Virus record (IMG/VR): IMGVR_UViG_3300045988_083460
Strand: one strand, 5' to 3'
Source: a virus
Length of the DNA: 64,000 nucleotides
This document shows, in pieces, positions 1 to 28,525 of the stretch (position 1 is its first letter; every line of letters begins with the position of its first letter). The notes beneath the pieces were generated by a model. That model saw only the letters and a program-made list of their open reading frames with translations, had not been told where the DNA came from and ran no database searches. The position numbers were made by a program, and so were the translations under genes.

Positions 1-1123
1 TCATTAGAAAAAAACGGACAACTTATTTTTGCATATCAGGTAATCTATCTACTACCCAATTAATCTATATATTAGTTTTTTTCTCTTCTGTCTATACATA
101 TTCAAAATCAAGAAGCTACAAACGACATAATATCTCAAGAGGATCCATTACAACTGCATTATTTGATGTAGTGGTTGTAGCAATTCCAATATAATCCTTC
201 ATCTATGATACAGTAACAATATAAGACTATTTTTCATTAGCACAAAATCTACCATACAGATACTAATAAATATCAATAACATGCTATTTTAAAACATTAG
301 TCAAGATAGAAAGAGTCTTATAGTATATAATATTAGCTTCCTCTGGCTATAACAAACGCAATCTATAATACTTCCCTTCTTCATCAATAATATAACCCTA
401 ATCCTCTAACCAATGAAAATACTTGCTTATGGTTTTTCTACTCATTACTTTGTTACCTTGACTATCTGTCATTTCTCTCTCAATATTAGTAAACTAACAT
501 TTCTTCTTTTCAATCTATCTATCTCGACTATGCAAAGTTATCCTTTCAGAATTACACTACAACCAAGCATATAATAAATCACAATAATTCTTTTCGCTCG
601 TAACCTCTCTTCGACAAGGCATTTGCCGAGTATCAAGCTCTTCTGGACTTCGTTTCATTATTATTATTTCAATCCTTTCATTCTTAATCTCATTATATCA
701 TAAAAATCCAGATAAATCAATTATTTGTCCACGACCAGAAAATTTAGACCAACTATCAGAAAATTTTGGACAACTCATTAGAAAAAAACGGACAAATCAT
801 TAGAAAATTTTGGACAAGTATTAGAAAAAAACGGACAAATTTGCCTATGTGTCCAACAATTTATTACACATTCCTAAAATTTATTACAATCTCTCAAAAT
901 CATGATATACTTCCTCTACGTACATATGAAATTTTACCTCAATTTTTTACCTCTTTTGGATATTCCGATCGTTTTTAAAACGCGGGATTGCCAATTTCTC
1001 TGCCTAAAAAATTCCCGCATCCGTGAGAAATTATGACGGTTCGTTATAATCCATAAGATTTACTTGCGTATCTTAATAAAATATGGTAATATATTTATAT
1101 AAATAAGAAAAGAGGTTTTACTC

Positions 1124-12023: not shown

Positions 12024-12051
12024 TTAAACAATAGAAAAGGAGATTGCTATT

Positions 12052-12288: not shown

Positions 12289-12327
12289 CTAAAAGACCTG
12301 AGCAAGTCAATAAACTGCTCTTTAAAT

Positions 12328-14858: not shown

Positions 14859-14870
14859 AAGTTTACAGTC

Positions 14871-15519: not shown

Positions 15520-15596
15520 GCTTCGGTAGTTCAGTTGGTTAGAATACGCGACTGATAATCGCGAGGTCGGCAGTTCAAATCTGCCTCGGAGCACCA
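15520..15596 (+). tRNA. tRNA-Ile (anticodon GAU)
   Basis: anticodon arm CGCGA-CTGATAA-TCGCG; T-arm GGCAG-TTCAAAT-CTGCC. Confidence 0.8.
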
Positions 15597-15835
15597 ACCG
15601 AATGTCAGCCTTGATAGATGGCAGGGTGAATACCTAACGCAAAATTCTATCATGTGCAAAGAGTTCGGTTCGAAAAATTCTTTGTGGGACAAAGACCACA
15701 GAGGCCATGCTACACTAGGGTGTCATGCTGCTTTGACTAGAGTGTAGAACAAAAGGCTTTTGTTTATCGAGTTCGCCCGTCAGTGGAAGCAGCTCCAAAG
15801 TAACTCGATTAGGGCTGGGGACGCTCAGCTTACAT

Positions 15836-15910
15836 AGGGCGATCGGTTAATGGCTAAACCAATGGTCTCCAAAACCATGACTGTAGGTTCGAATCCTACT
15901 CGCCCTGCCA
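15836..15910 (+). tRNA. tRNA-Trp (anticodon CCA)
   Basis: perfect acceptor AGGGCGA/TCGCCCT, anticodon arm ATGGT-CTCCAAA-ACCAT, G73-CCA. Confidence 0.8.
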
Positions 15911-15928
15911 ATAAAAGGGGAGAGTGCC

Positions 15929-16180
15929 ATGTCTATAGCAAGTTATGCAGAAGTTCGCGATATGGTAATCCGTGGTGATAATGGTATCAATCAATACTGC
16001 ATTATTGCAGTTGATGAATTTTCCTTTGAAGATTACCCTATTTATGCAGTTGATAGAAATGAAGCGATTAGTCTTATTGATAGGACTAATAGCTTAAATA
16101 TGCAACGGGTTCTCGAAGTTTATAACTATCAACAAGATCTGGAAGAGCAGTTCAAAGAGTTTCGTACATGGAGAATATAA
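15929..16180 (+). CDS. hypothetical protein
   Basis: ORF with RBS AAAGGGGAG. Confidence 0.45.
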   Translation: MSIASYAEVRDMVIRGDNGINQYCIIAVDEFSFEDYPIYAVDRNEAISLIDRTNSLNMQRVLEVYNYQQDLEEQFKEFRTWRI

Positions 16181-16195
16181 AAGGAGGTCGATAAA

Positions 16196-16429
16196 ATGGT
16201 AATGGATATTAATATCAAAAGCACAAGTGATGTTGAGCGTCTAAATGCCGTAGCGAGTAAAACTCCAGATGTACTTTGGGTTCATTCTAATGACGGTATG
16301 ATTATGGTTGATGCTCGTAGTCTGCTTGGTTTATTTGCTCTAATTGGAAAGCCATGTAAATTGGTTGCAGAAGATAGTACAGACTATAAAATTCTTGCAA
16401 GAGTAGCAAGAAAAGCTGGAGTAGCTTAA
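16196..16429 (+). CDS. hypothetical protein
   Basis: ORF with RBS AAGGAGG. Confidence 0.45.
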   Translation: MVMDINIKSTSDVERLNAVASKTPDVLWVHSNDGMIMVDARSLLGLFALIGKPCKLVAEDSTDYKILARVARKAGVA

Positions 16430-16441
16430 TGCTCCTTATTT

Positions 16442-16518
16442 GCCCCGTTAGCTCAGCTGGAAAGAGCAACCGCCTTCTAAGCGGTAGGTCATTGGTTCAA
16501 GTCCAATACGGGGTACCA
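16442..16518 (+). tRNA. tRNA-Arg (anticodon UCU)
   Basis: anticodon arm ACCGC-CTTCTAA-GCGGT; D-arm GCTC..GAGC. Confidence 0.8.
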
Positions 16519-16599
16519 TCTCTATTAGTTTAAAAGTGGAAAACACAAGAGCGCGCGTCTTGGTTGTGAGTTGAGCATCGCCTCACATAGAGAGCCTAT

Positions 16600-16674
16600 G
16601 GGCCATTAGCTTAACAGGCAGAGCAGTAGGTTGAAGCCCTACGGGACGAGGTTCGAGTCCTCGGTGGCCCACCA
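16600..16674 (+). tRNA. tRNA-Phe (anticodon GAA)
   Basis: anticodon arm GTAGG-TTGAAGC-CCTAC; T-arm CGAGG-TTCGAGT-CCTCG. Confidence 0.8.
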
Positions 16675-16746
16675 GTCCGCAAGGACAAAATTTCTTGAAG
16701 TGTTATATACCCCTTTTGCTTATATAATTAACAAGAGGGGTCACAT

Positions 16747-17062
16747 GGGGCCGTAAAGGTTTCGACGGGGCATTGAAGGATTAAAGTTCACGGGTATGCA
16801 CACCCCCTTAAGGGGCAACAAAAATTAACTGACAACGATTATTTCGAGAATTATCTTGCGGCTTGAGCTAAGCTCGCCGCTTAACCCTTGAGTTTCTTTG
16901 TTTACTCTCTTAAACAAAGTGGTGGAGGTAAACCAGTACGCTTAATGGAGTGTGGTTTGTTAAAGCCTATCCCACTTAATGGATAAAGTTTAACTATCGT
17001 GTGAAAAGACTTTAATTATATAGGTGTTTCGGACGCGGGTTCGACTCCCGCCGGCTCCACCA
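16747..17062 (+). ncRNA. ssrA: tmRNA (ssrA), about 316 nt; predicted tag ends ...NDYFENYLAA then TGA
   Basis: 5' GGGGCCGTAAAGGTTTCGACGGGG and 3' GGACGCGGGTTCGACTCCCGCCGGCTCCACCA closely match E. coli tmRNA ends; internal ORF AATTATCTTGCGGCTTGA encodes NYLAA-stop. Confidence 0.8.
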
Positions 17063-17092
17063 GTTAATAATAAAAGTAGGAAAGGATTTATT

Positions 17093-17356
17093 ATGGAATA
17101 CTTTTTTAATGTCTCAGTTAAATTAAAGACAGTAAAAAGTAAAGTGTTTAAGCGGAATGTTCTTTTAGTAGCAAATTCTCCTTGGGAGGCGATGAACATC
17201 GCTGCGAGAGTTTTTTCCAAAACTACTGTAGGAGGAGAGCCTTTAATCATTCTTGATGCTTCTGCGGAGAGAGATAATAAGTATGAGTGTGTTATTATAA
17301 AAGACACTCTTTATGAAGATGAAGATTATTTGATGGAGGATTCGTATGGAAATTGA
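17093..17356 (+). CDS. hypothetical protein
   Basis: ATG with RBS AGGAAAGGA; ORF-track start 17024 lies inside the tmRNA. Confidence 0.45.
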   Translation: MEYFFNVSVKLKTVKSKVFKRNVLLVANSPWEAMNIAARVFSKTTVGGEPLIILDASAERDNKYECVIIKDTLYEDEDYLMEDSYGN

Positions 17357-17798
17357 AAGAAAGTGGATTCTTCAAAGAGTTCCTACCGAATTTCGATTAG
17401 TAAAAAATTCTCAGGTAGAGCAATTTTATGTTTCGACGAATCCAGAAGTGCGATTACGACATAACCCGGCAAGTAAAGAGCCTTTTAGAATTACCGTAAA
17501 AGGTGAAGGCTCTTTAACAAGAGAAGAAATTGAAACAGAAATTTCGGAAGATTTTTACAATCAGCTAAAAGATTTTGTCGGTAAACCTCCAATTAAGAAA
17601 AATTATTCCGTTTTTAATTGCGGCGGGTATCCGCTCACGGTTTCTGTAGTAGATGATGGAGCTTTTATCTATGCAGAAATTGAATTTGAATCAGAGGAGC
17701 AGGCCCGCGACTATCAGTTTCCTATTGATGATGCTATTGAAGTGACGGATGATTCAAATTACAAGATGAAAAATTATTGGTTACGTACTCGTAATTAA
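17346..17798 (+). CDS. CYTH-domain protein (triphosphate tunnel metalloenzyme / CyaB-like)
   Basis: N-terminal MEIERKWIL signature (EXEXK motif) of CYTH proteins; about 150 aa. Confidence 0.65.
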   Translation: MEIERKWILQRVPTEFRLVKNSQVEQFYVSTNPEVRLRHNPASKEPFRITVKGEGSLTREEIETEISEDFYNQLKDFVGKPPIKKNYSVFNCGGYPLTVSVVDDGAFIYAEIEFESEEQARDYQFPIDDAIEVTDDSNYKMKNYWLRTRN

Positions 17799-17872
17799 AA
17801 TTTAGACCCGTACTGCAAAGAACTCTTTACCTGTTGTTTGAACTGGAGAAAAAGATGATGGGTCTAGTATAT

Positions 17873-17949
17873 GCGCCAGTAGCATAACGGAGAGTGCACA
17901 GGGCTACGGACCCTGGTTTGTGGGAGTTCAAATCTTCTCTGGCGTACCA
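17873..17949 (+). tRNA. tRNA-Arg (anticodon ACG)
   Basis: anticodon arm CAGGG-CTACGGA-CCCTG; acceptor GCGCCAG/CTGGCGT. Confidence 0.7.
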
Positions 17950-17952
17950 TAT

Positions 17953-18040
17953 GCAGAGATGGCCGAGTCTGGTTTATGGCGCCTGCCTAGAAAGCAGGAG
18001 GTCGAAAGATCCGTGGGTTCAAATCCTACTCTCTGCGCCA
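17953..18040 (+). tRNA. tRNA-Ser-like, type II, anticodon AGA (A34)
   Basis: perfect acceptor GCAGAGA/TCTCTGC, anticodon arm CCTGC-CTAGAAA-GCAGG, long variable arm, G73-CCA. Confidence 0.65.
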
Positions 18041-18316
18041 TATTGGTATCTTACATACAAGTCTGAAAGGCAGTAAGAATAAATCGTAGGGCCTTAAATC
18101 CGAGCCAGTAAAATAGAAGAGCTATACTTCGAGATACCCTTCGAGGATTGGAGCAACGAAGGTAAAAAAATAAAGTCCCCAAGATGTTTTCCGGTATCAG
18201 TACACAACCGGCATAGAGCAGAAGGGTTTAGGGTCGGTGCCTCGTATAGCACTAGAGGAAACGATAAGGACCAGGCATGGAAATCTGCGGAAGTGCGAAA
18301 AACCCTAAGTTAATAT

Positions 18317-18393
18317 CCGGGTGTAGTTCAGTTGATTAGAACGCGTGATTTGGGATCACGAGGCCGTGAGTTTGAGTCTCACCACTCGGACCA
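18317..18393 (+). tRNA. tRNA-Pro (anticodon UGG)
   Basis: anticodon arm CGTGA-TTTGGGA-TCACG; T-arm GTGAG-TTTGAGT-CTCAC. Confidence 0.75.
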
Positions 18394-18662
18394 CTCGCTC
18401 CCTAAGAGCGAGAATATGTATCACTCCTTTCCTATATATATAGACTCAATACAGCAAATATATGCAAATATACTTGTATAAAAAGATTTTACTAAATAAA
18501 TCTTATTTAGAAAGCTAAGAAGCATTTTCTTTTTGAAGGGAAGCCAAGAAAATGTTGAGCATATGGGGCAAGCCCTTTTGAGTCTAGTCTTTAGAAACTT
18601 TTGAAAATATTAAAAATAAATGATATAATATTTATAGAAAGTTGAGAAAGGAAGTCTTAAAT

Positions 18663-18857
18663 ATGAAGAATAACTTTGTTGCTATGGGTTGCTTTTATCG
18701 AGCTAATCCTTATGGTCTTGTTAAGACTATTTGTCGTGGTTTCGATGCTGACTCTGGAGATGTTATGATTGCTTATGTTCAAGTCGGCAAAGGTGGTTGC
18801 GCGAGCGAAGTTTTCTTTATGCTTGAGAACGAATTTAAAAATATCTTTCTGAGTTAA
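18663..18857 (+). CDS. hypothetical protein
   Basis: ATG after conserved promoter/leader (TGATATAAT ... GAGAAAGGAAGT). Confidence 0.45.
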   Translation: MKNNFVAMGCFYRANPYGLVKTICRGFDADSGDVMIAYVQVGKGGCASEVFFMLENEFKNIFLS

Positions 18858-18859
18858 AT

Positions 18860-18935
18860 GCCCGGTTAGCTCAGCTGGGAGAGCATCGCGTTTACACCGC
18901 GGAGGTCGGCGGTTCGAGCCCGTCACCGGGTACCA
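18860..18935 (+). tRNA. tRNA-Val (anticodon UAC)
   Basis: acceptor GCCCGGT/ACCGGGT, anticodon loop TTTACAC, T-arm GGCGG-TTCGAGC-CCGTC. Confidence 0.75.
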
Positions 18936-18956
18936 CTTAAAGTCTAGGAGAAAATT

Positions 18957-19154
18957 ATGAATTTTGTTGTTGGAGTTCTTAGTTTCTTTGAAAATGAAAT
19001 TAAGTTAGAGAAGATTACTGCTGAATCAGAAAAAGAAGCTCTAAAGAAACATTCTCTTTTGAATGGATATACCATTGATGAAGATGCTTCTTTAGAGAAG
19101 ATTTATGACGATTTGTTCAACTGCGATATAGCAGCGAGTGTAATTAAAATATAA
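18957..19154 (+). CDS. hypothetical protein
   Basis: 65-aa ORF, RBS AGGAG. Confidence 0.4.
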   Translation: MNFVVGVLSFFENEIKLEKITAESEKEALKKHSLLNGYTIDEDASLEKIYDDLFNCDIAASVIKI

Positions 19155-19295
19155 GTAAAATAAAGACGCATACAGCAAATTCTTCTTAATAGAAGATGCA
19201 GGTTCGAATCCTGTGGATCGCGCTTAGCGATTTTGGCGGAATGGTTTACGCAACTGTCTGATAAACAGTCTTTTCTTTAATGCGTCTTGATTTAT

Positions 19296-19369
19296 AGCGG
19301 ATTGGTGTAATGGTAACACGCGGGACTTTGACTCCCTTGTTAGAGGTTCGACCCCTCTATCCGCTGCCA
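19296..19369 (+). tRNA. tRNA-Gln (anticodon UUG)
   Basis: perfect acceptor AGCGGAT/ATCCGCT, anticodon loop CTTTGAC, G73-CCA. Confidence 0.7.
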
Positions 19370-19616
19370 TATACCGCTTTAGTGTAGCGGTCTGCACGCT
19401 TGGCTCTGAACCAAGAAGTTTTCGTTCAACACGAAGAAGCGGTGCCAGTAATAGAAGCAATACGTACAGAAATCGTAAATAAGACTTCTATTGTCAGGAT
19501 GTAGGATTGAAAGCGTCCACCATTTAAAGAGTGGCGAGTAAACCTGCAGGGCTCGCCTTTGGCGTAGTAGCACACTGACGAGGTTCTCGATTAACCTTAT
19601 CCAAAATCGTTTATAT

Positions 19617-19733
19617 GGGGAGTTAGCTCAGTTGGTAGAGCGCGTTATAGTTTGGTCTTGTTAAAGACCGTAACAGCAATCTTTAACTTGCTTTGGGTGC
19701 ACGATGTCGCAGGTTCGAGTCCTGCACTCCCCG
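19617..19733 (+). tRNA. tRNA-like gene with about 49-nt insertion in the anticodon/variable region; anticodon undetermined
   Basis: perfect acceptor GGGGAGT/ACTCCCC, canonical D-arm (GCTC-AGTTGGTA-GAGC) and T-arm (GCAGG-TTCGAGT-CCTGC) separated by 66 nt instead of about 22. Confidence 0.5.
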
Positions 19734-19818
19734 CCGAATACACCGGAGATACTTTCATCCTCCGGGGAAGAAGAAGAGAAAGGTGAGAAGCACAACTCAG
19801 CATAAAAATGTGCAATAT

Positions 19819-19905
19819 CCCGGAGTGGTGGAATTGGCAGACACAGGGGACTTAAAATCCCCTGAGAGCAATCTCGTACGGGTTCGAGTCCCGTCTCCGG
19901 GACCA
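19819..19905 (+). tRNA. tRNA-Leu (anticodon UAA), type II
   Basis: perfect acceptor CCCGGAG/CTCCGGG, anticodon arm AGGGGA-CTTAAAA-TCCCCT, long variable arm, A73-CCA. Confidence 0.8.
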
Positions 19906-19923
19906 AACAATTCTTTTATATAT

Positions 19924-20011
19924 GGGTCAGTAAAGTGCTAAAGTAGACACCCCGGTCTGTAAAACCGGTGCTTTCGAGCTCGAGTGGGTGCGATTCCCTC
20001 CTGGCCCACCA
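19924..20011 (+). tRNA. tRNA-Tyr (anticodon GUA), type II
   Basis: anticodon arm CCGGT-CTGTAAA-ACCGG; variable arm with GCT-TTCG-AGC hairpin; A73-CCA. Confidence 0.7.
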
Positions 20012-20040
20012 CATCTAACAATAGGAAAGGAAGTAAATAG

Positions 20041-21162
20041 ATGAATATTGTCCATACAGGAAATCGTTTTTAGGTATATGGTGACGATGTAAAAACTTAT
20101 AAAGAGTTACCAATCGGAACCTATACAATCGGTTTCCATCCCCAAATGGGAATTTGGCTTTCTGTTCATAATAATTTGCAGATTGGCGAAGAAAAAGTTT
20201 ATGGCTCGCATAGTCATAAGGTAGAGAAAGTTTTCAACTCTTTCGATAAGTCCGAGCGAAACTTTGGTATAATTCTTTCTGGTAAGAAAGGTATTGGCAA
20301 ATCTCTTTTTGCAAGAATGATTGCGGATGCCGCGATCAAGCGAGAAATGCCAGTGATTGTAGTCGATTCTCCTATTCCCGGAATTAGTAATTTCCTCAGT
20401 TCCATTGAACAAGAAGTTGTTATTATCTTTGACGAGTTTGAAAAGACTTTTGCCAGGAATGATGACGGCGATCCGCAGGTAGGACTTTTAAGTCTATTTG
20501 ATGGGATTGATAATGGAAAGAAACTTTTTGTTATCACTTGTAACGATACAAGAAAATTGAACGAATTTCTTATCAATCGCCCTGGTCGTTTTCACTATCA
20601 TTTTGAGATTGGCTGTCCTACAGCGGATGAAGTGCGGGCATATATGATGGATGCGCTTGGAAGCGGTATGGAAGAGGAAATTGAAAAGGTTGTTAAGTTG
20701 TCGCAGGTCGCGGACATTACTTATGATAGCCTAAGGGCTATTGCTTTTGATTTGAAACAAGGTTATCCTTTGGAGGAAACCTTAATGGATTTGAATATTA
20801 ACTATGAGAGAGGTGTTCTCTTTGATGTTAATGTTCGTTTGACTAATGGTTGGGTTATGACTGCATATAATTATAATCTCGATCTTTATGCCAAAGAGGT
20901 TCAGTGTCTTCGGTTTAAAAAAGATAAGAATGATTTCTACCTTTCTTTTGATCCAGGAAAGATTAAATCTATGGATGGTACTCTCGTACTTATGGGCGTA
21001 GATGCTAATTTCTATTGTGATTTTGATGCTTTCGATTATGATTACCCCACTGAGGAAGAGAGTGCAAAGGCTAGAAAGGAATTTAACGAAAAAGTAAGGG
21101 TTGAAAATGCAACCTTTACTAAGGTTTCAATTTATGGAGTCAATAAGTATATTGACCTTTAA
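20041..21162 (+). CDS. AAA+ family ATPase; in-frame TAG at 20074-20076
   Basis: Walker A GKKGIGKS, Walker B VIIFDEFEK, sensor-1 ITCN, arginine-finger region NRPGRFHYHF; RBS AGGAAAGGAAG before ATG 20041. Confidence 0.75.
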
Positions 21163-21201
21163 TATAAAGACCTAAGCAAGTCTTAAAACTGCTTTATATA
21201 T

Positions 21202-21277
21202 TGCGGGTAGGACAAGTGGTTAAGTCGCAGCCCTCATAAGGCTTGAGGAATGAGTTCGATTCTCATACCCGCAACCA
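21202..21277 (+). tRNA. tRNA-Met/Ile2 (anticodon CAU), second copy
   Basis: perfect acceptor TGCGGGT/ACCCGCA, anticodon loop CTCATAA, T-arm ATGAG-TTCGATT-CTCAT. Confidence 0.75.
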
Positions 21278-21361
21278 TCCATCGTTGCAGCGGTGTTTAT
21301 ATATATTTCATTTATAAATGCAATATGTATGATTGAGGTTCTGCAAAACCTTGATTACCCT

Positions 21362-21394
21362 AGAGGGGCTAGCCATAAGCTGGCCCCTCTTTTC
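21362..21394 (+). terminator. rho-independent terminator (GAGGGGC...GCCCCTC + TTTTCT)
   Basis: inverted repeat plus T-run; followed directly by the conserved 55-nt element. Confidence 0.65.
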
Positions 21395-21400
21395 TGTTGT

Positions 21401-21455
21401 CCTCGTTCTGCTCCGAGTTTCCGTTCGCGCAGGCCCACCAAATTTTTCTTTCAAA
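21401..21455 (+). repeat. 55-nt conserved element, copy 1 (CCTCGTTCTGCTCCGAGTTTCCGTTCGCGCAGGCCCACCAAATTTTTCTTTCAAAA)
   Basis: 53/55 identical to 47922..47976; both copies follow a terminator and precede TAG-rich operons. Confidence 0.8.
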
Positions 21456-21557
21456 AATGGGGCTTGGACAATTTATGTGAAATCTCTTGTCATTATTGTT
21501 ATATAGTATAAAGAGAGATAATTTTCTTCTCTACTTCTTTAAGAAAGGAGAATAAGT

Positions 21558-21813
21558 ATGATTACTATTGGTAAAAATATAGATAATAAAGTTTTTTATG
21601 GTACAGTTCATTTTTTATGTGATTACCAAAGTGATGTTGCTAATCTCCCTAAAAACCGCAAGCCGGGCAGTTCAGCCTACGTAATTGAAAATGGAAATAG
21701 ATATATTTTCAATTCTGATCATGAATGGGTGTTGTAGCACTCTGGTGGAGGCGGAGATTAGCCTCTTCCTCCAGAAGATACAACTATTATTTATGATGGC
21801 GGACTAATTGGCT
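21558..21813 (+). CDS. hypothetical small protein; 2 in-frame TAG
   Basis: RBS AAGGAG; frame open through TAG 21729 and 21756 to TAA. Confidence 0.45.
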
Positions 21814-21829
21814 AAAGGAGGGAGTGACT

Positions 21830-22390
21830 TTGGCTGAAGTTGTTTATAAAACAATATTTTAGTTCAAGCGAGGAACATCAGAGAAGTGGACCGAATTAAA
21901 TCCAATTCTTCGTCAAGGTGAGCCGGGATTTGAAATAGATACTGGAAAGTTAAAAATTGGAGATGGAGCCACCGAGTGGAAATAGTTAAAATATATAAAT
22001 AGTAGTTTGGTAAATGTTGATGTAGACAATCAATCTATTGTTATTGATGGAATTGGACAGATTTCATTAAAAGGATTTGCAGAAGCATCAACAGGGCAAT
22101 CTATTAGAAAAAGAGAAGATGGCACATTAGAGTGGTATACTCCAATATCTTAGGATAAAGTAATAGAAACTATCTCTATCGGAAATAAAGATTTGCCGGT
22201 TGAAGATAATAAAGTTACTATTCCGGCGGGAACAGAAGAAAATCTTGGTTTAATTAAGGGGAGTAGTTAGAATAATTAGATAAAAATACTTTCAGATGGA
22301 ACCGGAGAAATTAATTCTGTAGGACTTGATAAAATAGTGGATGTTGAAGGTTTTACTTTAATATTAAACTGTGGGACAGCAGTAGACTAA
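21830..22390 (+). CDS. tail-fibre protein A with conserved N-terminal fibre module; 6 in-frame TAG
   Basis: TTG start after AAAGGAGGGAG; motif NPILRQGEPGFEIDTGKLKIGDGATEW shared with genes at 22411, 24688, 26096; frame open to TAA 22388. Confidence 0.55.
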
Positions 22391-22410
22391 AATAAGGAGG
22401 CATTTTAAAG

Positions 22411-23472
22411 ATGGCCAATGAATTAAAAACTAGAATCCAACTTAGACATGATACCGAGGAAAATTGGACTTCAGTTAAGGACTCCTTTATTCCTCTCGTT
22501 GGAGAGGCTTGTCTTACCACCGATGGCGAGAATAAAGGAAAAGTAAAATATGGTGATGGAACAAGCACTTGGGGTTAGTTAGAATATTCTGGTGGAAAAG
22601 ATATTGTAGAAGTTGATTCATCTATTGTAAAATTTGATGATGATTTTACATTTACCTATACTTTTGGTAAATATGCTCCTGGAGGAGATGGATCTGTTAA
22701 TATTCCCGCGACTGGAAAAACATTAGATCAATTACTGCTAGATGCTTTTGCGGAAGAAAAAAATCCTACTATTACGCAACCTTCTGTTAGTATTTCCTCT
22801 AGTCAAATGAAAGCGTATGAAGCAGGCACTAATGTAACTCCAACTTATACTGCAACTTTAAATAAAGGATCTTATCAATACGGCCCAGACACTGGAATTA
22901 CAGCAACCGGTTGGAGCGTCCAATTTGATGAAGAAACAAAAACAGAAGCTACTGGAACTTTCTCTGAAATTCAAGTTGAAGATGCTACTAATTTAAAGAT
23001 TACAGCAACAGCTAATTATGGGAATGGAGCTATTCCTGTTACAAATCTTGGTTCTGAATATGTAGAAGGACAGATTAAAGCTGGATCTAAGTCTAATAGC
23101 ACAGGAGCTATTACTGGATATCGCTAGATTTTTTATGGAGTTAATAATTCTACAGATCCTTTAACTAGCGCGATTATTCGTTCTTTAACAGCAAGCAATA
23201 AAGCGGCAGCCGCAATGACTATTAATAGCATTAAAGCAAAAAGTGATACTAAGAGAATTATTATCGCAGTTCCTCAATCTTCTGGGCTTAAAGTTACCGC
23301 AGCTAATATTACTTCTAGTTTGAACGCAGATGTAACTTCTAGCTATGTAAAGCAAGGACCAGTGCAAGTAGAAGGAGCAAATGGATTTACCGCGGTTCCT
23401 TATGATGTATTCGTTTATCAACCTGCTTCCATTGATCCAACTGAGGATCATAAGGTTGTAATTGGAAAGTAA
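22411..23472 (+). CDS. tail-fibre / receptor-binding protein B; 2 in-frame TAG
   Basis: N-terminal RIQLRHDTEENW...KYGDGTSTW module; ORF-track fragments 22807..23127 and 23215..23472 lie in the same frame joined by TAG. Confidence 0.6.
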
Positions 23473-23489
23473 GGAAGGAGGAACAAATA

Positions 23490-24662
23490 ATGGCAGTAAT
23501 TAACAAAGATATTGCATATATGGCGTTACCTCTGAGTATTCGTAGAGGAAATCCTTTCCCTATTGATGAATATTCAGTATGGTATGATATGGAAGAATTA
23601 ACAACATATGCTCAATCTAGTCCTGTAGCATATGTTGGTTAGGTAGTTACCTTAGTTAATGAAAAAGAAAATACAGTTGAAGCGTATATGATTCAAAATG
23701 CTGCTGGCAATTTAATGAAATTGGCTTCAACTACTGCTTCTGGTGATTTAACGGAAGATGTTTTAGAGCTTCAAGGAAAAGTTTCCGCATTAGAAACCTC
23801 TGTTGGTACCAAAGAAGAAGAAAGTTCAATAACAGCTTCTAATCTTTGGGCAGCCATTGAGGAAGTTAAAGCAGCTTATGAAGCAGCTGATAGTTCTATT
23901 AATGGAAAATTTAATGATTATTATAATAAAACAGAAGCAGATTCTAAGATTGACCAAAAAATTGCTACTGCAATAAGTTCAACTTATAAACCTGCTGGTT
24001 CCATTATGTTTAGTTTCCTTCCTACACTTGGAGCTGATCAAGAGGGAAAAGTATATAATATTATAGATGCTTTCACCACTACTGAAGACTTCGTTGAAGG
24101 AGCCGATAATAAATATCCAGCTGGAACTAATGTAGTATGTATTGACACTGATGATGCTGGAACTTACAAATGGGATGTTCTCGCGGGATTTGTAGATTTA
24201 AGTGGATACGAAACTACAAGTAGTGTAGATACTAAGTTAGCTAATAAAGTCGACAAAGTAGAAGGATCATCTTTAGTTCAAGATATTCTAATTGCTAAAT
24301 TATAGGGTTTAGCAGAAATCAAAGGAGTTAGTGATGAATTAGAAATTGATCCTGATGATAAAACTCTTGGCGTAAAAGCGATTGCATAGGAGAAAATTAC
24401 TGGCCTTCCCGCGGCTTTAGCAGAGAAGATTAAGAGTATAACCGTAGGAACTACTCCTCTTTAGGTTAGCGATGGCGCAGTTACTATTCCTATTGCTACA
24501 GCAGAGGCTCTTGGTGTAGTAAAAAGCACCACTAGTGAAAACGGCGTTTCTATTACAGGCGATGGAACTATGATTGTCAATAACATAAATATAGAAAAAA
24601 TTACTTAGACTCCTGGTACAGAGCTTATCTTAAATGGTGGAGATGCTACTGTTAGTGAATAA
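23490..24662 (+). CDS. tail-fibre protein C; about 5 in-frame TAG
   Basis: same frame as ORF 23688..24305, extends through TAG codons to TAA 24660; C-terminal domain paralogous to gene D. Confidence 0.55.
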
Positions 24663-24687
24663 AAATCAACTTGGAGGAAGATAAATA

Positions 24688-26025
24688 ATGGCTACAACTT
24701 TTAATACAAGAATCCAATTAAAATATGATACTTATGAAAATTGGGATACCAATAACCCCGTTCTTCTAAAAGGAGAAATGGCGGTTGTTGAAGTTCCTGT
24801 TGAAACTGGAGTTGCTCAAAATGAGCCTACCTATTTGTTAAAAATCGGTGACGGTGAATCAGATTTTAAAACTTTAAAATGGGTAAGCGGGACGGCCGCA
24901 GATGTTTATACTTGGGCTAAAGCGGCAAGTAAACCAACTTATGCAGCGACTGAAATTACCGGACTTGAAGATTTTATTGGAGAAAAAATTCAAGATACCG
25001 ATACACAATATTAGATTGTTAAAAATGGAGATATGGGTTTTAAGCTTCAATCTAGACCAAAAACTGGCGGATCTTGGACAGATGTAAGCACTATTGCTCT
25101 GACCGCTCCCACTTATAATTTAGTCGAAGGGACTACTAATGGTACTGTAAAATTTGGAGTTACTGGTTCTGAAAAAGAAGTAAAAGTTCATGGACTTGGA
25201 TCAGCAGCTTATACTGAATCTGGTGCTTATGACGCAGCTGGTAGTGCAGATACAGCAAAAAGCGAAGCTATCGATGAAGCTGCTAATGCCACCGATGAAA
25301 AAATTGCAGCTCTAAAAATCAATGAATATGCAAAAACCACAGAAGTAGATTCTAAAATTGGGGCAGCAAAAACAGAGTTAATTGGTGAAGGAAGTGGTTC
25401 TTCCACTACTATTAAAGGTGCTTATGATGAAGCTAAAACCTATACTGATTAGCAAATTGCTGCTAGAATTTCCTCTACTTATAAAGCCGGAGGATCTATT
25501 GCGTTCGCTTCTCTACCAGAACTAACTGCAACAGAAGAAGGAAAGGTTTATAACATTCTTGATAAATTCACTACTACAGACGATTTCGTAGAAGGTTCCG
25601 GGAAGAGTTATCCTGCTGGTACTAATATTGTTTGTATAGATGTGGGAGAAGAAGAATTTAAATGGGATGTTTTAGCTGGAATGGTAGATCTTTCAGCGTA
25701 TGATACAGCAGAGATAACTCAGGGAAAAATTGATTCCGCTAAGCAAGAGGCCAAAAGCTATGCAGATTCTAAAGTTAACGCTTTAGATAAAGAAGATTCA
25801 GCCGTAGAAAATCAATTTGTAACTGCGGTGTCTGAGACTGATGGTATCATTAGCGTAACTCGTGCTCAACCTACCATGGAGAATATCAACGGGTTACCTG
25901 CGGCTCTTACTAAAAAAGCTAATGATGCAGACTTAGCATCTGTTGCTAAAAGTGGAAAGATTGATGATCTAACTCAGACCGCTACAATTATTTTTAATTG
26001 TGGAAGTTCTAGCACAGTAATATAA
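24688..26025 (+). CDS. tail-fibre protein D; 2 in-frame TAG
   Basis: N-terminal module TRIQLKYDTYENW...LKIGDGESDF; ORF fragments 24688..25014, 25033..25452, 25642..26025 share one frame. Confidence 0.6.
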
Positions 26026-26033
26026 AATTTTAG

Positions 26034-26073
26034 ATAAAGCCCATATTTATTTAATAAATATGGGCTTTATCTT
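26034..26073 (+). terminator. rho-independent terminator
   Basis: AAAGCCCATATTTATT...AATAAATATGGGCTTT hairpin + TCTTTTTATT. Confidence 0.7.
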
Positions 26074-26095
26074 TTTATTAAGGGAGGTCATAATA

Positions 26096-26293
26096 ATGAC
26101 TTTTGATACTAGAATCTCTCATAAGATAGATACAGAAGAAAATTGGAAAACAAATAATCCAATTTTATTAAAGGGAGAATTAATTATAGTAATTGATGAA
26201 TCTAATACAGTTCATCTTAAAATTGGAAATGGAACAAGTCATTATTCAGAATTACCATTTATTGAAAATGAAATTGTCTGGGGTACTTTCTAA
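26096..26293 (+). CDS. stand-alone copy of the tail-fibre N-terminal module (66 aa)
   Basis: TRISHKIDTEENWKTNNPILLKGE...LKIGNGTSHYSELPF; RBS AAGGGAGG. Confidence 0.5.
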   Translation: MTFDTRISHKIDTEENWKTNNPILLKGELIIVIDESNTVHLKIGNGTSHYSELPFIENEIVWGTF

Positions 26294-26378
26294 TTTGCAA
26301 AAAAATAAAAAATATAATATAATATATACATAAAGTTAAGGAAATAAAAACTTAAAATTATTAAAGGAGATTTAGATT

Positions 26379-26711
26379 ATGTATCCTATTGAGAAGTATC
26401 GCTATTATACTAACGGTCGGCGAGTAATCGCCGTGTCTACTTATGCTGGAAAGACTGTCCGCGGTGTAGCTACCTGTGATCCCGGTGATGAATTTTCTAT
26501 GGAAAAGGGTAAGGCACTTGCGGCCGCTCGATGCGCGTTGAAGATTGCTGGTAAGCGCTATGATCGTGCCACTCGTAAGACAAAGGAAGCTAATGAAGCT
26601 TGTCATGTGGCTGAGCGTCATCTTGAAAAGATGTGTGAGTATCTTACTGATTCTGAGCGGATGTTGATCCAGGCTGAGGATAATCTCGAGGATATTCTGA
26701 ACGCTCTTTGA
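26379..26711 (+). CDS. hypothetical protein
   Basis: 110-aa ORF, RBS AAAGGAG. Confidence 0.45.
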   Translation: MYPIEKYRYYTNGRRVIAVSTYAGKTVRGVATCDPGDEFSMEKGKALAAARCALKIAGKRYDRATRKTKEANEACHVAERHLEKMCEYLTDSERMLIQAEDNLEDILNAL

Positions 26712-26715
26712 TACC

Positions 26716-26742
26716 TGGGGCTTTATGCCCCTTTATGCCGGC
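26716..26742 (+). terminator. terminator hairpin GGGGC-TTTAT-GCCCC + TTTATG
   Basis: inverted repeat directly after stop codon. Confidence 0.5.
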
Positions 26743-26746
26743 GTGG

Positions 26747-26824
26747 TAGAGTGGTTTAATACAGCGGTCTTGAAAACCGCCGATCCGCAAGGGTCCGTAG
26801 GTTCGAATCCTACCGCCGGCGCCA
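26747..26824 (+). tRNA. tRNA-Ser (anticodon UGA), type II
   Basis: perfect acceptor GCCGGCG/CGCCGGC, anticodon arm GCGGT-CTTGAAA-ACCGC, long variable arm, G73-CCA. Confidence 0.8.
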
Positions 26825-27061
26825 TCTATAATTAAAGGAGAAATATAATGCGCTGGTTAGTGAATTATATTCGACAAATATTTTGTAAACACGATTTTGT
26901 TTTTGATGAAGGTTGGGCAGAAAAAACAAGTGATTCAGGATCTTTTCGCAAAGGGATAAAAGTTTCTTGCTATTGTAAGAAATGTTCTTATCATAAATCT
27001 TGGTGGAAGTATTGACAATAAAAAATTTTTTTGATATAATATTTATAGAAAGTTGAAAGAT

Positions 27062-27388
27062 ATGAAAAACTGTTTGGATTGTAATAAATGTTGGGTTGTA
27101 AAAGACCCCGATCCAAAAGACGATACTTGTTTAGCTGCTTTCTGTAGCAAGTCTAAAACAAGAGGCATGAAATGCAATGAAATTTCATACCTAATGCCTT
27201 TAGGATATAATTCTGCGTTTGCAGAAAGTCCTCTTCCTGATGACCCATGGATTACTGTTGCGGAACATTGGGGCACTCTTAGAGAAAAATGCACCGTTCC
27301 AGATTGGTGTCCGGGAATGGAAGAGAATGGAGAATACAGTTTGTTCACAGATAAAACATCGGTTGATATTATGAAAGAGCGACAATAA
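27062..27388 (+). CDS. Cys-rich hypothetical protein
   Basis: ORF after promoter (TGATATAAT) and leader. Confidence 0.45.
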   Translation: MKNCLDCNKCWVVKDPDPKDDTCLAAFCSKSKTRGMKCNEISYLMPLGYNSAFAESPLPDDPWITVAEHWGTLREKCTVPDWCPGMEENGEYSLFTDKTSVDIMKERQ

Positions 27389-27477
27389 CTAAAAGACGCT
27401 TTCAGCAATTTATTTTAAGAATATAAAAAAGTTTGATTTTTAATTTCTTGCCATGATTTTGCGTCTTGAGAATATAT

Positions 27478-27553
27478 TGCGGAGTAGCGTAATGGTTTAG
27501 CGCAGGGGTCTCTAAAACCTCGGGAGTGGGTTCGAATCCCACCTCCGCTGCCA
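27478..27553 (+). tRNA. amber suppressor tRNA (anticodon CUA), Gln-type
   Basis: anticodon arm GGGGT-CTCTAAA-ACCTC gives C34 U35 A36; weak 1-72 pair (U1/U72) and G73 resemble tRNA-Gln identity; T-arm GTGGG-TTCGAAT-CCCAC; CCA encoded. Confidence 0.75.
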
Positions 27554-27573
27554 TATTATAAGGAGGTATTCGT

Positions 27574-27888
27574 ATGAGTAGATCAAGAAAGAAAACTCCG
27601 TACAATACAGATACTTCCCAGAAATTCTTGAAGAAAGTCGCAAATAAGAGAGTTAGAAGGCTTCTAAAAAATCCTGATAATAGTTTACCTTATAGTTCAT
27701 ATAAGAAAGCCTTTCAATCATGGGATATTTGTGACTATAAAAATTACGGGCATAGCTTTGAAGAGTTCTATAAAGAAGAGGTCGCTCTGTGGAGACATTG
27801 GAGAACTCTTCCTTATTGGAAGAATGAACCAAAACCAACAAGGGAAGAATGTTGGTTAGATTACCTCAAACAGTATTTGCGAAAATAA
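27574..27888 (+). CDS. hypothetical basic protein
   Basis: ORF with RBS AAGGAGG directly after the suppressor tRNA. Confidence 0.5.
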   Translation: MSRSRKKTPYNTDTSQKFLKKVANKRVRRLLKNPDNSLPYSSYKKAFQSWDICDYKNYGHSFEEFYKEEVALWRHWRTLPYWKNEPKPTREECWLDYLKQYLRK

Positions 27889-28305
27889 GAAATTTTTGCA
27901 ATAACTTAAAAAATATTTTATAATATAAGTGTAAATCTTCCTTTCAAATATATAAATAAGGCTCATACAGCAAAATTTTATTGCCGAATATTCGGCTCCT
28001 TGGATGAATCAAATGTATGATATACCCTAAGTATGATGCGATATTGCGAGCCTTGCAATTAAAACAATAAAGTGTTAAAACGGGGCATCGCGCGGAAGAG
28101 CCATTATATAATGGACATAGGGCCATTCTTCCGCGCATTTTCTTTATCGGGGAGTTGGCAATTTATGTGGCAAAATAATATTGAATTTTTAGATGTACTT
28201 ACAATGATTTCTTTTATTCTTCAGGTATAGAACTCAGAAGGTTGTAAACTAGATGAAGTAAATAAAAAGTTGGATGTTTTAATTGCTGAGGTTGCTAAAT
28301 TAAAT

Positions 28306-28382
28306 GCTCGAGTGGGCTAATTGGTATAGCCGTCAAGCTCAAACCTTGATGTTTGTGAGTTCGAGTCTCACCTCGAGTACCA
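28306..28382 (+). tRNA. type-I tRNA with anticodon CAA (Leu, UUG), A73
   Basis: acceptor GCTCGAG/CTCGAGT, D-arm GGCT..AGCC, anticodon arm TCAAG-CTCAAAC-CTTGA, T-arm GTGAG-TTCGAGT-CTCAC. Confidence 0.6.
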
Positions 28383-28525
28383 AAAGCCTCAGAATCGTGT
28401 AGATTCATGCCTCTTTTTTTATTATAGCTAAAAAAATGCAAACCTAATTGGGCTATAACCAATTAGCTAAAGAGTTAGGGGTTTTCTTTAGGGTAGAGCC
28501 ACCGCCTTAGATCGTGGCATTATAT

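What the first reader, a model, noticed from the sequence alone, without database searches (positions are those of the whole stretch)
21558..26293. In-frame TAG is rare in early and replication genes and dense in tail-fibre, lysis and selfish-nuclease genes
Counted by eye: 0-1 in-frame TAG per gene across 1-20 kb, 53-58 kb and most metabolic genes. By contrast there are 2-6 in each tail-fibre gene (21.5-26 kb), 2 in the SPOR-domain phosphodiester glycosidase gene and 9 in the lysozyme-like+amidase_2+SLH fusion ORF of the lysis cassette (50.1-52.4 kb), 6 in the Zn-finger/DUF559 nuclease and about 10 in the GIY-YIG gene.

This bias is what is expected if synthesis of late proteins is gated by expression of the suppressor tRNA, as described for other recoded phages. 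The suppressor tRNA sits in the middle of the genome (27.5 kb), away from the main tRNA island.
Basis: seen in the sequence. Interest (0 to 1): 0.65.

Follow-up and report, generated by a model that had tools for sequence, protein, structure and literature searches.

The report
Amber codons confined to late-type phage genes
This common human-gut phage reads the stop codon TAG as glutamine but uses it only in a small set of genes (tail fibres, lysis, DNA-cutting enzymes, a replication-initiator-like gene), a pattern already described for other recoded phages.

Summary
Under a TAG-as-sense gene call (86 genes), the 74 ordinary genes hold 7 in-frame TAG. The five tail-fibre genes hold 2, 5, 2, 5 and 2; the lysis genes 2 and 9; the zinc-finger homing endonuclease 6; the GIY-YIG gene 8, not about 10. 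Enrichment is 20-50 fold (Fisher p 1e-9 to 1e-17) and survives a codon-usage-matched control (p 5e-13).

TAG means glutamine. It aligns with invariant Q in homologues and exchanges with CAA/CAG across relatives. A tRNA(CUA) is present and conserved.

It is flanked by 22-nt iterons and its model resembles plasmid Rep initiators. Just outside the window, the same lineage has TAG-rich RecJ-like, RuvC-like and recombinase genes. So "rare in replication genes" is too simple.

Gating by the suppressor tRNA is consistent with the data but untested. The tRNA lies in a TAG-free operon behind a perfect sigma-70-type promoter, which suggests early transcription. Individual TAG codons turn over like ordinary synonymous codons.

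Borges et al. described this pattern, including a stop-rich intron homing endonuclease. This is a new instance of a known phenomenon, of modest interest.

The parts
27478..27553 (+). Suppressor tRNA, anticodon CUA. It has a U1-U72 mismatch and G73, and its acceptor stem is nearly identical to that of the phage tRNA-Gln(UUG).
   Evidence: ARAGORN; Rfam tRNA 59.8 bits; cloverleaf fold; comparison with the other tRNAs; present at the same place in relatives L081-L086 and L107, and as two copies in L088/L089.
27012..27040 (+). Perfect sigma-70-type promoter (TTGACA, 17 nt, TATAAT, with TG). It heads the TAG-free unit of gene 27062-27388, the suppressor tRNA and gene 27574-27888.
   Evidence: no terminator-like site between 27040 and 27478; promoter conserved in L082, L083, L086 and L107.
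27393..27469 (+). Conserved stem-flanked element (AAGACGC ... CAGCAA ... GCGTCTTGA) directly upstream of the suppressor. It is one of six copies near tRNAs.
   Evidence: compensatory stem variant (AAGACAC/GTGTCTT) upstream of the suppressor in L083 and L107.
21558..26025 (+). Tail-fibre-like operon of five genes with 2, 5, 2, 5 and 2 in-frame TAG. It is bounded by terminators at 21362-21390 and 26032-26072.
   Evidence: Counts; Mtd_N domain; PHROG tail-fibre hits; terminators; TAG-rich in relatives.
39135..39998 (+). Mobile homing-endonuclease gene (Zn-finger repeats plus nuclease), 6 TAG.
   Evidence: PHROG HNH/homing endonuclease, E 9e-54; family members sit at different positions in relatives and are TAG-rich, 54 TAG in 3,005 codons.
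39068..39139 (+). Hairpin that sequesters the ribosome-binding site and start codon of the homing-endonuclease gene.
   Evidence: MFE -25.4 kcal/mol, z -6.2, 0 of 200 shuffles fold as well; 89% of the initiation region is paired, the highest of 86 genes.
50095..52693 (+). Lysis cassette: NAGPA+SPOR protein (2 TAG), lysozyme+amidase+SLH endolysin (9 TAG) and a two-TM holin-like protein (0 TAG here, usually 1 in relatives). It is bounded by terminators at 50045-50072 and 52695-52733.
   Evidence: Pfam; counts; TM windows; terminators; six of the nine TAG columns align with Gln in most homologues, two of them invariant Q.
59596..60507 (+). TM helix, coiled coil and C-terminal GIY-YIG nuclease, 8 TAG. 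It is a resident gene after DNA ligase.
   Evidence: Pfam and PHROG; syntenic in 18 relatives down to about 57% identity, each with 8-15 TAG; TM window.
23..658 (-). Tandem winged-helix, Rep-initiator-like ORF with 12 TAG in 211 codons. It is the most TAG-dense gene in the window.
731..831 (.). About five iteron-like direct repeats at 21-22-nt spacing upstream of the Rep-like ORF. Another copy lies at 1-22 downstream of it. An inverted half-repeat at 719-731 overlaps the ORF's promoter (720-692, minus strand).
   Evidence: the same arrangement (22-nt repeats, seven or more upstream and three or more downstream) occurs around the 48%-identical homologue in L111.
19296..19447 (+). Standard tRNA-Gln(UUG) and tRNA-Gln(CUG) genes in the main tRNA island, used here for comparison with the suppressor.

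Best explanation
The window comes from a widespread human-gut, SPbeta-like phage (related contigs about 100-150 kb) that uses genetic code 15 only in part.

Mechanism proposed.
- TAG is read as glutamine by a phage tRNA(CUA).
- About 80% of genes contain no TAG and never end in TAG. The unmodified host apparatus can therefore translate them correctly.
- A discrete minority of genes use TAG for 14-85% of their glutamine codons. In the window these are the tail-fibre operon, the lysis cassette, a mobile homing endonuclease, a GIY-YIG nuclease and a Rep-like ORF. Outside the window they include RecJ-like, RuvC-like and resolvase genes.
- Full-length product from these genes requires enough charged suppressor tRNA to outcompete release factor 1. 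Their synthesis is therefore tied to the state of the code switch, which acts as a delay or safety catch on virion-completion, lysis and DNA-cutting functions.
- The partition is maintained mainly by strong selection against TAG in genes that must work before suppression is effective. In the permissive genes TAG behaves as a near-neutral synonymous codon.

Shown: the distribution, TAG = Gln, the suppressor gene, conservation of per-gene TAG density across relatives, and neutral turnover of sites.

Inferred: the temporal order, competition with RF1, and any adaptive use as a timer.
For: - Counts and statistics.
- TAG = Gln. In the endolysin, six of nine TAG columns are Q in most homologues and two are invariant Q. 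Across all families TAG exchanges mostly with CAA/CAG. In the Rep-like family the TAG at WLQCNSER is an invariant Q.
- The suppressor tRNA is present and conserved.
- TAG is never needed as a stop. The 69 TAG-free genes read the same under either code and all end in TAA or TGA.
- Per-gene density is conserved across lineages at 50-99% identity. gyrA, gyrB, ligase, RNase H and the MVP-like gene are essentially TAG-free over 4,000-20,000 codons each. The GIY-YIG, HEG, lysin, holin-like and tail-fibre families are TAG-rich.
- TAG-free genes with the same codon usage (gyrase, PhoH, RNase H, AAA_24) show that the exclusion is specific.
- TAG and CAA are retained equally, 78% versus 79%, and flux between them is symmetric.
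- Both TAG-rich operons are exact terminator-bounded units. Twelve near-consensus sigma-70 promoters (1.6 expected) all precede TAG-free genes or tRNAs, apart from one 67-codon ORF (59046-59249) with a single TAG.
- The homing endonuclease also has a sequestered ribosome-binding site.
- The pattern matches the published model.
Against: - No expression data exist, so early or late class is inferred from function and promoters only.
- The functional split is imperfect. The Rep-like ORF has a sigma-70-type promoter yet is the most TAG-dense gene. RecJ-like is TAG-rich inside an SPbeta-like replication operon, and DnaB, PolIII-alpha, NrdD and NrdG carry 1-2 TAG each. A Phage_lysozyme2 protein is TAG-free.
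- The promoter association is not statistically decisive.
- The host and its genetic code are unknown.
- No RF2, aaRS or anti-RF1 gene was found in the window.
Confidence: 0.6

Rival explanations
1. Adaptive lysis and late-gene timer, which is the first reader's reading in its strong form. TAG codons are positively selected in late genes as a regulatory device, and late or induced expression of the suppressor tRNA throws the switch.
For: - Lysis and tail-fibre units are TAG-rich and insulated by terminators.
- The endolysin is individually significant.
- Gene-level TAG density is conserved in relatives.
- Borges et al. found convergent enrichment in lysis cassettes.
Against: - Individual TAG positions are no better conserved than CAA positions.
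- TAG:CAA:CAG is 41:72:8 in the TAG-rich genes. That does not exceed a simple AT-biased mutational expectation, in which TAG would roughly equal CAA (inference).
- Only the Rep-like ORF prefers TAG over CAA.
- The suppressor sits behind a perfect sigma-70-type promoter in a TAG-free operon, which suggests early rather than late transcription.
Confidence: 0.25
2. Expression level or tolerance rather than timing. Suppression is inefficient, so TAG is purged from genes needed in quantity or at full fidelity. It drifts upward in low-demand or dispensable genes such as fibres, lysins, nucleases, HEGs and Rep, whatever their time of expression.
For: - TAG turnover is neutral-like.
- TAG-rich genes include dispensable or mobile ones (the HEG family).
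- Many replication and nucleotide-metabolism genes carry a low level of 1-2 TAG.
- RecJ-like is TAG-rich although it lies inside a replication operon.
Against: - Many small accessory genes of unknown function, and the NAD-salvage and RNA-repair genes, are completely TAG-free, which is unexpected if dispensability alone allowed drift.
- The distribution is close to bimodal: 14 genes with eight or more Gln codons have zero TAG, while the TAG-rich genes have 14-85%.
- In other recoded phages abundant structural proteins are recoded.
Confidence: 0.2
3. Foreign-module origin. The TAG-rich genes are mosaic or mobile modules recently imported from more fully recoded phages and keep their donor's codon usage.
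For: - TAG-rich genes have lower third-position G.
- The Rep-like ORF, HEG and GIY-YIG genes have low GC, 0.28-0.33.
- The HEG family is clearly mobile.
- The Rep-like module in L111 is an AT-rich island.
Against: - Tail-fibre, lysis, GIY-YIG and RecJ-like genes are syntenic residents in relatives at 57-99% identity and TAG-rich throughout.
- Several TAG-free genes share the same codon usage.
- TAG sites turn over in situ.
Confidence: 0.1
4. TAG is a true stop, or encodes another residue such as pyrrolysine, which is how ARAGORN labels the tRNA. The TAG-rich ORFs would then be pseudogenes or strings of small genes.
For: ARAGORN names the CUA tRNA 'tRNA-Pyl'. Under table 11 these ORFs fragment.
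Against: - None of these frames contains TAA or TGA (P as low as 7e-12).
- Full-length domain architectures span the TAGs.
- TAG aligns with invariant Gln and exchanges with CAA/CAG.
- No Pyl synthesis genes were found among the proteins scanned.
Confidence: 0.01

Closest known systems
Partially recoded (code 15 or code 4) gut phages of Borges et al. 2021/2022, the Lak, crAss-like, Jade, Sapphire, Agate, Garnet, Amethyst and Topaz clades
   Same: - TAG is read as Gln and the phage encodes a suppressor tRNA.
- Only a minority of genes carry in-frame stops (26% in the Sapphire clade; about 20% here).
- Structural and lysis genes lie in several recoded modules scattered through a large genome.
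- Recoding of the replication machinery is variable.
- A homing endonuclease is strongly recoded.
- Early genes are compatible with the standard code.
   Different: - Clade membership was not tested because no terminase gene lies in the window.
- The closest GenBank phages share only distant protein similarity.
- Here the TAG-rich set also includes resident DNA-cutting enzymes and an iteron-flanked Rep-like operon.
- No RF2 or aaRS 'code-change module' was found in the window.
crAss-like phages using code 15 (validated by metaproteomics, Peters et al. 2022, PMC9523058)
   Same: TAG is decoded as Gln in late genes of gut phages whose hosts use the standard code. The metaproteomic validation is taken from the abstract listed.
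   Different: The lineage and probable host differ. This phage has SPbeta-like yor replication genes and SLH and SPOR lysin domains, which point to Firmicutes. In crAss-like phages the recoded genes form one contiguous block; here they are islands among TAG-free genes on the same strand.
Delayed translation of phage T4 homing endonucleases through RBS-sequestering hairpins (for example I-TevI; recalled from my own knowledge, not checked here)
   Same: The mobile endonuclease at 39135-39998 has its ribosome-binding site and start codon buried in a strong hairpin. This would limit translation from read-through transcripts.
   Different: Here a second layer, six amber codons, is added. No late promoter inside the hairpin was demonstrated.
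Iteron-binding plasmid replication initiators (R6K pi, mini-F RepE, RctB)
   Different: It has no sequence-family match: Pfam and PHROG found nothing. Origin function is untested. Dependence on 12 amber codons has no counterpart that I know of among plasmid initiators.

Membership tests
Partially recoded code-15 phage (TAG to Gln with suppressor tRNA) | Conserved ORFs contain in-frame TAG but no TAA or TGA | tested here: met
   chance of staying open 1e-5 to 7e-12 for ORFs of 188 codons or more.
Partially recoded code-15 phage (TAG to Gln with suppressor tRNA) | TAG positions align with glutamine in homologues | tested here: met
   Endolysin: six of nine columns are Q in most homologues, two of them invariant. 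TAG exchanges with CAA/CAG in all families. The Rep-like family has an invariant Q at a TAG position.
Partially recoded code-15 phage (TAG to Gln with suppressor tRNA) | Phage-encoded tRNA with anticodon CUA | tested here: met
   27478-27553; conserved in relatives. That it is charged with Gln is inferred only.
Partially recoded code-15 phage (TAG to Gln with suppressor tRNA) | TAG is not used to terminate genes | tested here: met
   All 69 TAG-free genes, which are identical under either code, end in TAA or TGA.
Partially recoded code-15 phage (TAG to Gln with suppressor tRNA) | Recoded stops concentrated in structural and lysis genes and scarce elsewhere | tested here: met
   Exceptions are the Rep-like ORF and the RecJ-like and RuvC-like genes.
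Partially recoded code-15 phage (TAG to Gln with suppressor tRNA) | Standard-code host and a switch of code during infection | not testable with these tools
   The host is unknown and there are no expression data.
Partially recoded code-15 phage (TAG to Gln with suppressor tRNA) | Accessory code-change genes such as RF2 or an aaRS (optional; present in only some clades) | tested here: not met
   None among the window proteins scanned. A YqeY/GatB-like protein at 41510-41878 is the only gene related to tRNA(Gln).
Homing endonuclease (mobile, selfish) | Nuclease family typical of homing endonucleases | tested here: met
   39135-39998: PHROG HNH/homing endonuclease, E 9e-54. 59596-60507: GIY-YIG domain, Pfam E 4e-9, PHROG E 5e-21.
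Homing endonuclease (mobile, selfish) | Sporadic, variable insertion sites among related genomes | tested here: met
   This applies to the 39135-39998 family only. Copies lie between different genes in L003, L005, L086 and L101.
Homing endonuclease (mobile, selfish) | The same mobility criterion applied to the GIY-YIG gene at 59596-60507 | tested here: not met
   It occupies the same position after DNA ligase in 18 relatives down to about 57% identity, and has an N-terminal TM helix and coiled coil. It is a resident gene, not shown to be selfish.
Iteron-binding Rep initiators (pi, RepE, Rep_3) | Tandem winged-helix fold | tested here: met
Iteron-binding Rep initiators (pi, RepE, Rep_3) | Adjacent array of direct repeats of about 20 bp | tested here: met
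   731-831 and 1-22 in the window; 22-nt repeats around the homologue in L111.
Iteron-binding Rep initiators (pi, RepE, Rep_3) | Sequence membership in a known Rep family | tested here: not met
   No Pfam hit at E<=0.01 and no PHROG hit.
Iteron-binding Rep initiators (pi, RepE, Rep_3) | Origin activity or iteron binding | not testable with these tools
   Needs experiment.

The most novel reading that the evidence does not exclude
Amber codons may do more here than delay virion and lysis proteins. They may place a whole class of potentially self-destructive or mode-switching DNA functions under translational control by the suppressor tRNA.

That class includes an iteron-flanked Rep-like initiator operon, which is transcribed from a host-type promoter but needs 12 TAG read-throughs. 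It also includes the resident nucleases and recombinases (GIY-YIG, RecJ-like, RuvC-like, resolvase).

The code switch would then also time a change in replication or recombination mode, or the firing of an origin. This dependence is conserved in a 48%-identical homologue in an unrelated 198-kb phage.
Probability: 0.2. Interest if true: 0.65.

Novelty: new member of a known kind. Interest (0 to 1): 0.33.

Why it matters
- The lineage is very common. One window protein is indexed in 1,196 blocks of public assemblies, including human-gut metagenomes. Correct annotation requires code 15, because under table 11 the endolysin, tail fibres and nucleases fall apart.
- The window gives a clean quantitative example of partial recoding: about 80% of genes are code-neutral and a discrete TAG-dependent minority is not.
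- Two results sharpen the published model. The signal lies mainly in the exclusion of TAG from the other genes, while TAG sites inside permissive genes turn over neutrally. The TAG-dependent set also extends to resident DNA-cutting enzymes and a Rep-like initiator.
- If the timing model is right, a TAG map becomes a sequence-only predictor of temporal class for uncultured phages.

Tried and rejected
1. The idea that TAG specifically replaces CAG, because (TAG+CAG)/Gln is about 40% in all classes. Rejected: with a third-position-G-matched control the CAG/CAA ratio does not differ (p 0.53). Low CAG is part of a general shortage of G-ending codons.
2. My prediction that the flanking Phage_lysozyme2 gene would be TAG-rich and the flanking replication genes TAG-free. 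It failed: lysozyme2 has 0 TAG, RecJ-like 13 and DnaB 2.
3. A shared late-promoter motif upstream of the TAG-rich units. None was evident by eye. The sigma-70 promoter association is suggestive only (12 sites).
4. A search for the Rep-like ORF in IMG/VR by peptide patterns and by a 29-nt DNA word. Nothing was found. It was found instead in the protein collection.
5. The nucleotide after TAG shows no preference compared with CAA/CAG.
7. My regex scan for the tRNA-associated element in relatives had a mis-set arm offset and is not informative.
8. My own errors. Both rows are void and were redone with true sequences (protein 1, 52, 54). The q-values printed were wrong (bug) and are replaced by those.
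9. Walking to the capsid, portal and terminase genes. I reached only about 26 kb beyond the right end of the window and about 10 kb beyond the left. A TAG-rich minus-strand block begins about 26 kb to the right, but it was not annotated as structural.

Full report
**What the window is.** The 64-kb window has 36% GC and carries 31 tRNA genes plus a tmRNA. Almost all coding is on the + strand. With TAA and TGA as the only stops I obtained 86 genes.

Pfam and PHROG annotation gives this layout:

| Region | Content |
|---|---|
| 1-10 kb | small genes of unknown function |
| 10-20 kb | tRNA island |
| 20041-21162 | AAA ATPase |
| 21558-26025 | five-gene tail-fibre-like operon (Mtd_N domains) |
| 26.3-28.7 kb | small genes and four more tRNAs, including tRNA(CUA) at 27478-27553 |
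| 28.9-33.2 kb | TROVE-like and Major-Vault-Protein-like proteins |
| 34-47 kb | RNA-repair and NAD-salvage genes |
| 48785-50041 | PhoH |
| 50095-52693 | lysis cassette (NAGPA+SPOR; lysozyme+amidase+SLH; two-TM holin-like) |
| 52.8-59 kb | RNase H, gyrase B and A, DNA ligase |
| 59596-60507 | GIY-YIG protein |
| 60.8-63.8 kb | ThyX, a wHTH protein, YorF-like and AAA_24 proteins |

Identical proteins occur in human-gut metagenome contigs of 78-148 kb. The flanking genes (YorF, YorH, DnaB, RecJ-like, PolIII-alpha) resemble the SPbeta yor replication module. GenBank phages show only distant similarity.

**The observation.**
- Tail-fibre genes: 2, 5, 2, 5 and 2 TAG.
- Lysis genes: 2 and 9.
- Zn-finger homing endonuclease: 6.
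- GIY-YIG gene: 8, not about 10.
- Of 74 other genes, 67 have none and 7 have one.

The single TAGs include genuine sense positions in UDG and ThyX.

Enrichment is 20-50 fold. Fisher tests give p 1e-9 to 1e-17, both per codon and per Gln-family codon. The heterogeneity test was exceeded by 0 of 200,000 simulations.

Three controls hold.
- Out-of-frame TAG differs only about 1.3-fold.
- TAG-rich genes do use fewer G-ending codons. However, 16 TAG-poor genes with equally low third-position G, among them gyrase, PhoH, RNase H, ligase and AAA_24, hold 3 TAG against 141 CAA/CAG. The TAG-rich genes hold 41 against 80 (p 5e-13).
- The TAG-containing frames have no TAA or TGA at all (P as low as 7e-12).

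Per gene, the Rep-like ORF, the endolysin, the GIY-YIG gene and one fibre gene pass BH q<0.05.

**What TAG means.** I collected 76 endolysin homologues from IMG/VR, of which 51 are distinct and 24 are TAG-free.
- Six of the nine TAG columns are Gln in most homologues.
- Two of them are Q in every other sequence, 48/48 and 45/45.
- Across all gene families, TAG in the window pairs with TAG, CAA or CAG in relatives, and the reverse also holds.
- In the Rep-like family one TAG sits in the invariant motif WLQCNSER.

The tRNA(CUA) folds as a cloverleaf. It has G73 and a U1-U72 mismatch, and shares five of seven acceptor pairs with the phage tRNA-Gln(UUG). It is conserved 3-4 kb upstream of the MVP-like gene in relatives at 53-100% identity.

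None of the 69 TAG-free genes ends in TAG. So TAG is a glutamine codon, and most genes are compatible with either code.

**The pattern in relatives.** Orthologue tables over 110 related loci:

| Family | TAG / codons |
|---|---|
| gyrB | 0 / 17,981 |
| gyrA | 1 / 20,443 |
| MVP-like | 1 / 19,344 |
| DNA ligase | 0 / 7,128 |
| RNase H | 0 / 4,152 |
| GIY-YIG family | 227 / 5,049 |
| homing-endonuclease family | 54 / 3,005 |
| holin-like | 15 / 1,948 |
| tail fibres | 4.5-22 per 1,000 codons |
| endolysin | 141 / 25,397 |

Half of the endolysin homologues come from apparently standard-code relatives.

- The homing-endonuclease family sits at different places in different genomes and is TAG-rich wherever it lands among TAG-free neighbours.
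- The GIY-YIG gene behaves differently. It is syntenic after DNA ligase down to about 57% identity and carries 8-15 TAG in every copy. It has an N-terminal TM helix and a coiled coil. It is a resident gene, not demonstrably selfish.

The minus-strand ORF at 23-658 has 12 TAG in 211 codons, and 12 of its 14 Gln-family codons are TAG.
- It has a sigma-70-like promoter (720-692, minus strand) overlapped by an inverted half-repeat.
- About five direct repeats at 21-22-nt spacing lie upstream (731-831), and another copy lies just past its stop.
- It has 361 full-length homologues of unknown function.
- A 48%-identical homologue in a 198-kb contig is also flanked by 22-nt iterons. It holds 4 of the 5 in-frame TAG found among the 27 called genes checked in that 20-kb locus; the fifth is in an HNH endonuclease.
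- In a 96%-identical relative the ORF heads a three-gene minus-strand operon that is TAG-rich throughout, with 10, 3 and 4 TAG.

Outside the right end of the window, in the same lineage:

| Gene | TAG / codons |
|---|---|
| RecJ-like exonuclease (inside the yor-type replication operon) | 13 / 583 |
| RuvC-like resolvase | 9 / 159 |
| serine recombinase | 4-5 |
| DnaB, PolIII-alpha, PIF1-like helicase, NrdD, NrdG | 1-2 each |
| Phage_lysozyme2 protein | 0 |

The RecJ-like gene has 5 TAG in 65%-identical relatives and none in 51%-identical ones.

The TAG-dependent set is therefore tail fibres, lysis genes, DNA-cutting enzymes and a Rep-like operon. It is not simply 'late versus replication'.

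**How it most likely works.** About 80% of genes can be translated by an unmodified host. A discrete minority cannot yield full-length protein until the suppressor competes effectively with RF1. This is the model of Borges et al., who also reported a strongly recoded intron homing endonuclease and 'variable' recoding of replication genes.

- The suppressor lies between two TAG-free small genes. It is 438 nt downstream of a perfect TTGACA-17-TATAAT promoter with no terminator between them, and the promoter is conserved in relatives. The tRNA is probably made early by host polymerase. Any gate would then be accumulation or competition, not late transcription.
- At 80-99% protein identity, TAG codons are retained as often as CAA codons (78% versus 79%) and flux is symmetric (9% each way). 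At 40-80% identity the sites are nearly randomised. Density per gene is conserved, but positions are not. TAG:CAA:CAG is 41:72:8 in the TAG-rich genes. A simple AT-biased mutation model predicts TAG roughly equal to CAA, so no positive selection for TAG is needed (inference). Only the Rep-like ORF prefers TAG.
- Independent hints of separate regulation exist but are weak. Both TAG-rich operons are exactly bounded by intrinsic terminators. Twelve near-consensus sigma-70 promoters (1.6 expected) all precede TAG-free genes or tRNAs, apart from one 67-codon ORF with a single TAG. The homing endonuclease also has its ribosome-binding site and start codon buried in a hairpin (-25.4 kcal/mol, z -6.2).

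**Rivals.** I considered four.
- A strong adaptive lysis timer.
- Tolerance in low-expression genes. This cannot be excluded without the capsid genes.
- Import of foreign modules. Synteny argues against it.
- Pseudogenes or another amino acid. This is refuted.

**Novelty and verdict.** The phenomenon and its interpretation are published. This is another lineage showing it, probably Firmicutes-infecting and abundant in the human gut. The most novel reading still open is suppressor-dependent control of a Rep-like initiator and of resident nucleases and recombinases (probability about 0.2).

Noticed in passing
window 28857-33230: A DUF2828/DUF7788 (TROVE-like) protein of 506 aa is followed by an 813-aa Major-Vault-Protein-like protein (MVP_shoulder 6e-18, Vault repeats). 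The pair is conserved in 30 IMG/VR phage contigs and, at 39-44% identity, in the 462-735-kb huge phages LR756500/LR756501. Both genes are TAG-free.
   Followed up: partly
window 10207, 10622, 19163, 19664, 27393, 27958 (+ strand): Six copies of an element with a conserved 5' box (TAWAAGRCnnnwACAGCAA). Five of them have a complementary 3' arm (nnnGYCTTG) 60-120 nt downstream. The stems vary in a compensatory way (AAGACGC/GCGTCTT, AAGGCAG/CTGCCTT, AAGGCTC/GAGCCTT). Copies lie directly upstream of tRNA-Asn, tRNA-Gln(UUG) and the suppressor, and one copy encloses tRNA-Leu(CAA). There is no Rfam match. The element is conserved upstream of the suppressor in diverged relatives.
   Followed up: partly
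window 19617-19733: Rfam finds a tRNA (49.8 bits) with a 55-nt insertion in the anticodon arm, which ARAGORN missed. The insertion contains the AAAGACC...ACAGCAA box.
   Followed up: partly
window 10092-28612 (all tRNA genes): Nearly every tRNA gene is immediately preceded by ATAT or a close variant. The tRNAs are separated by long (100-400 nt), often GC-rich spacers. One spacer (19163-19290) contains a T-arm-like remnant.
   Followed up: no
window 16747-17062: A phage-encoded tmRNA (Rfam 116 bits, tag peptide DNDYFENYLAA) lies within the tRNA island.
   Followed up: no
window 41510-41878: A YqeY/GatB-C-terminal-like protein, conserved in relatives, lies among the NAD-salvage genes. It could relate to tRNA(Gln) handling in a host that makes Gln-tRNA by transamidation. 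This is speculative.
   Followed up: no
window 34259-47454: A dense RNA-repair and tRNA-repair set (RlaP-like nucleotidyltransferase, three metallophosphatases, RNase_T exonuclease, RNA ligase, Thg1-like, AAA_33 kinase) is interleaved with NAD salvage genes (nicotinamidase-like, PRPP-synthetase-like, NAPRTase/NAMPT, NAD synthase). All are TAG-free.
   Followed up: no
window 5624-61435 (12 sites): Twelve near-consensus sigma-70 promoters are present, against 1.6 expected from shuffles. All have a 17-nt spacer and all are intergenic. Most lie 22-38 nt upstream of a gene start, and the others lead into the tRNA island.
   Followed up: partly
L116/L121 (about 1-16 kb right of the window) and L140 13764-19002: In the same phage lineage the RecJ-like exonuclease (13 TAG), the RuvC-like resolvase (9 TAG) and a serine recombinase (4-5 TAG) are TAG-rich. 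A block of TAG-rich minus-strand genes begins about 26 kb beyond the window end.
   Followed up: partly
window 59558-59600: The GIY-YIG ORF starts 10 nt after a strong intrinsic terminator and has no recognisable ribosome-binding site. A public gene call starts it 75 codons later. However, homology in relatives covers residues 26-303, so the longer ORF is probably real.
   Followed up: partly
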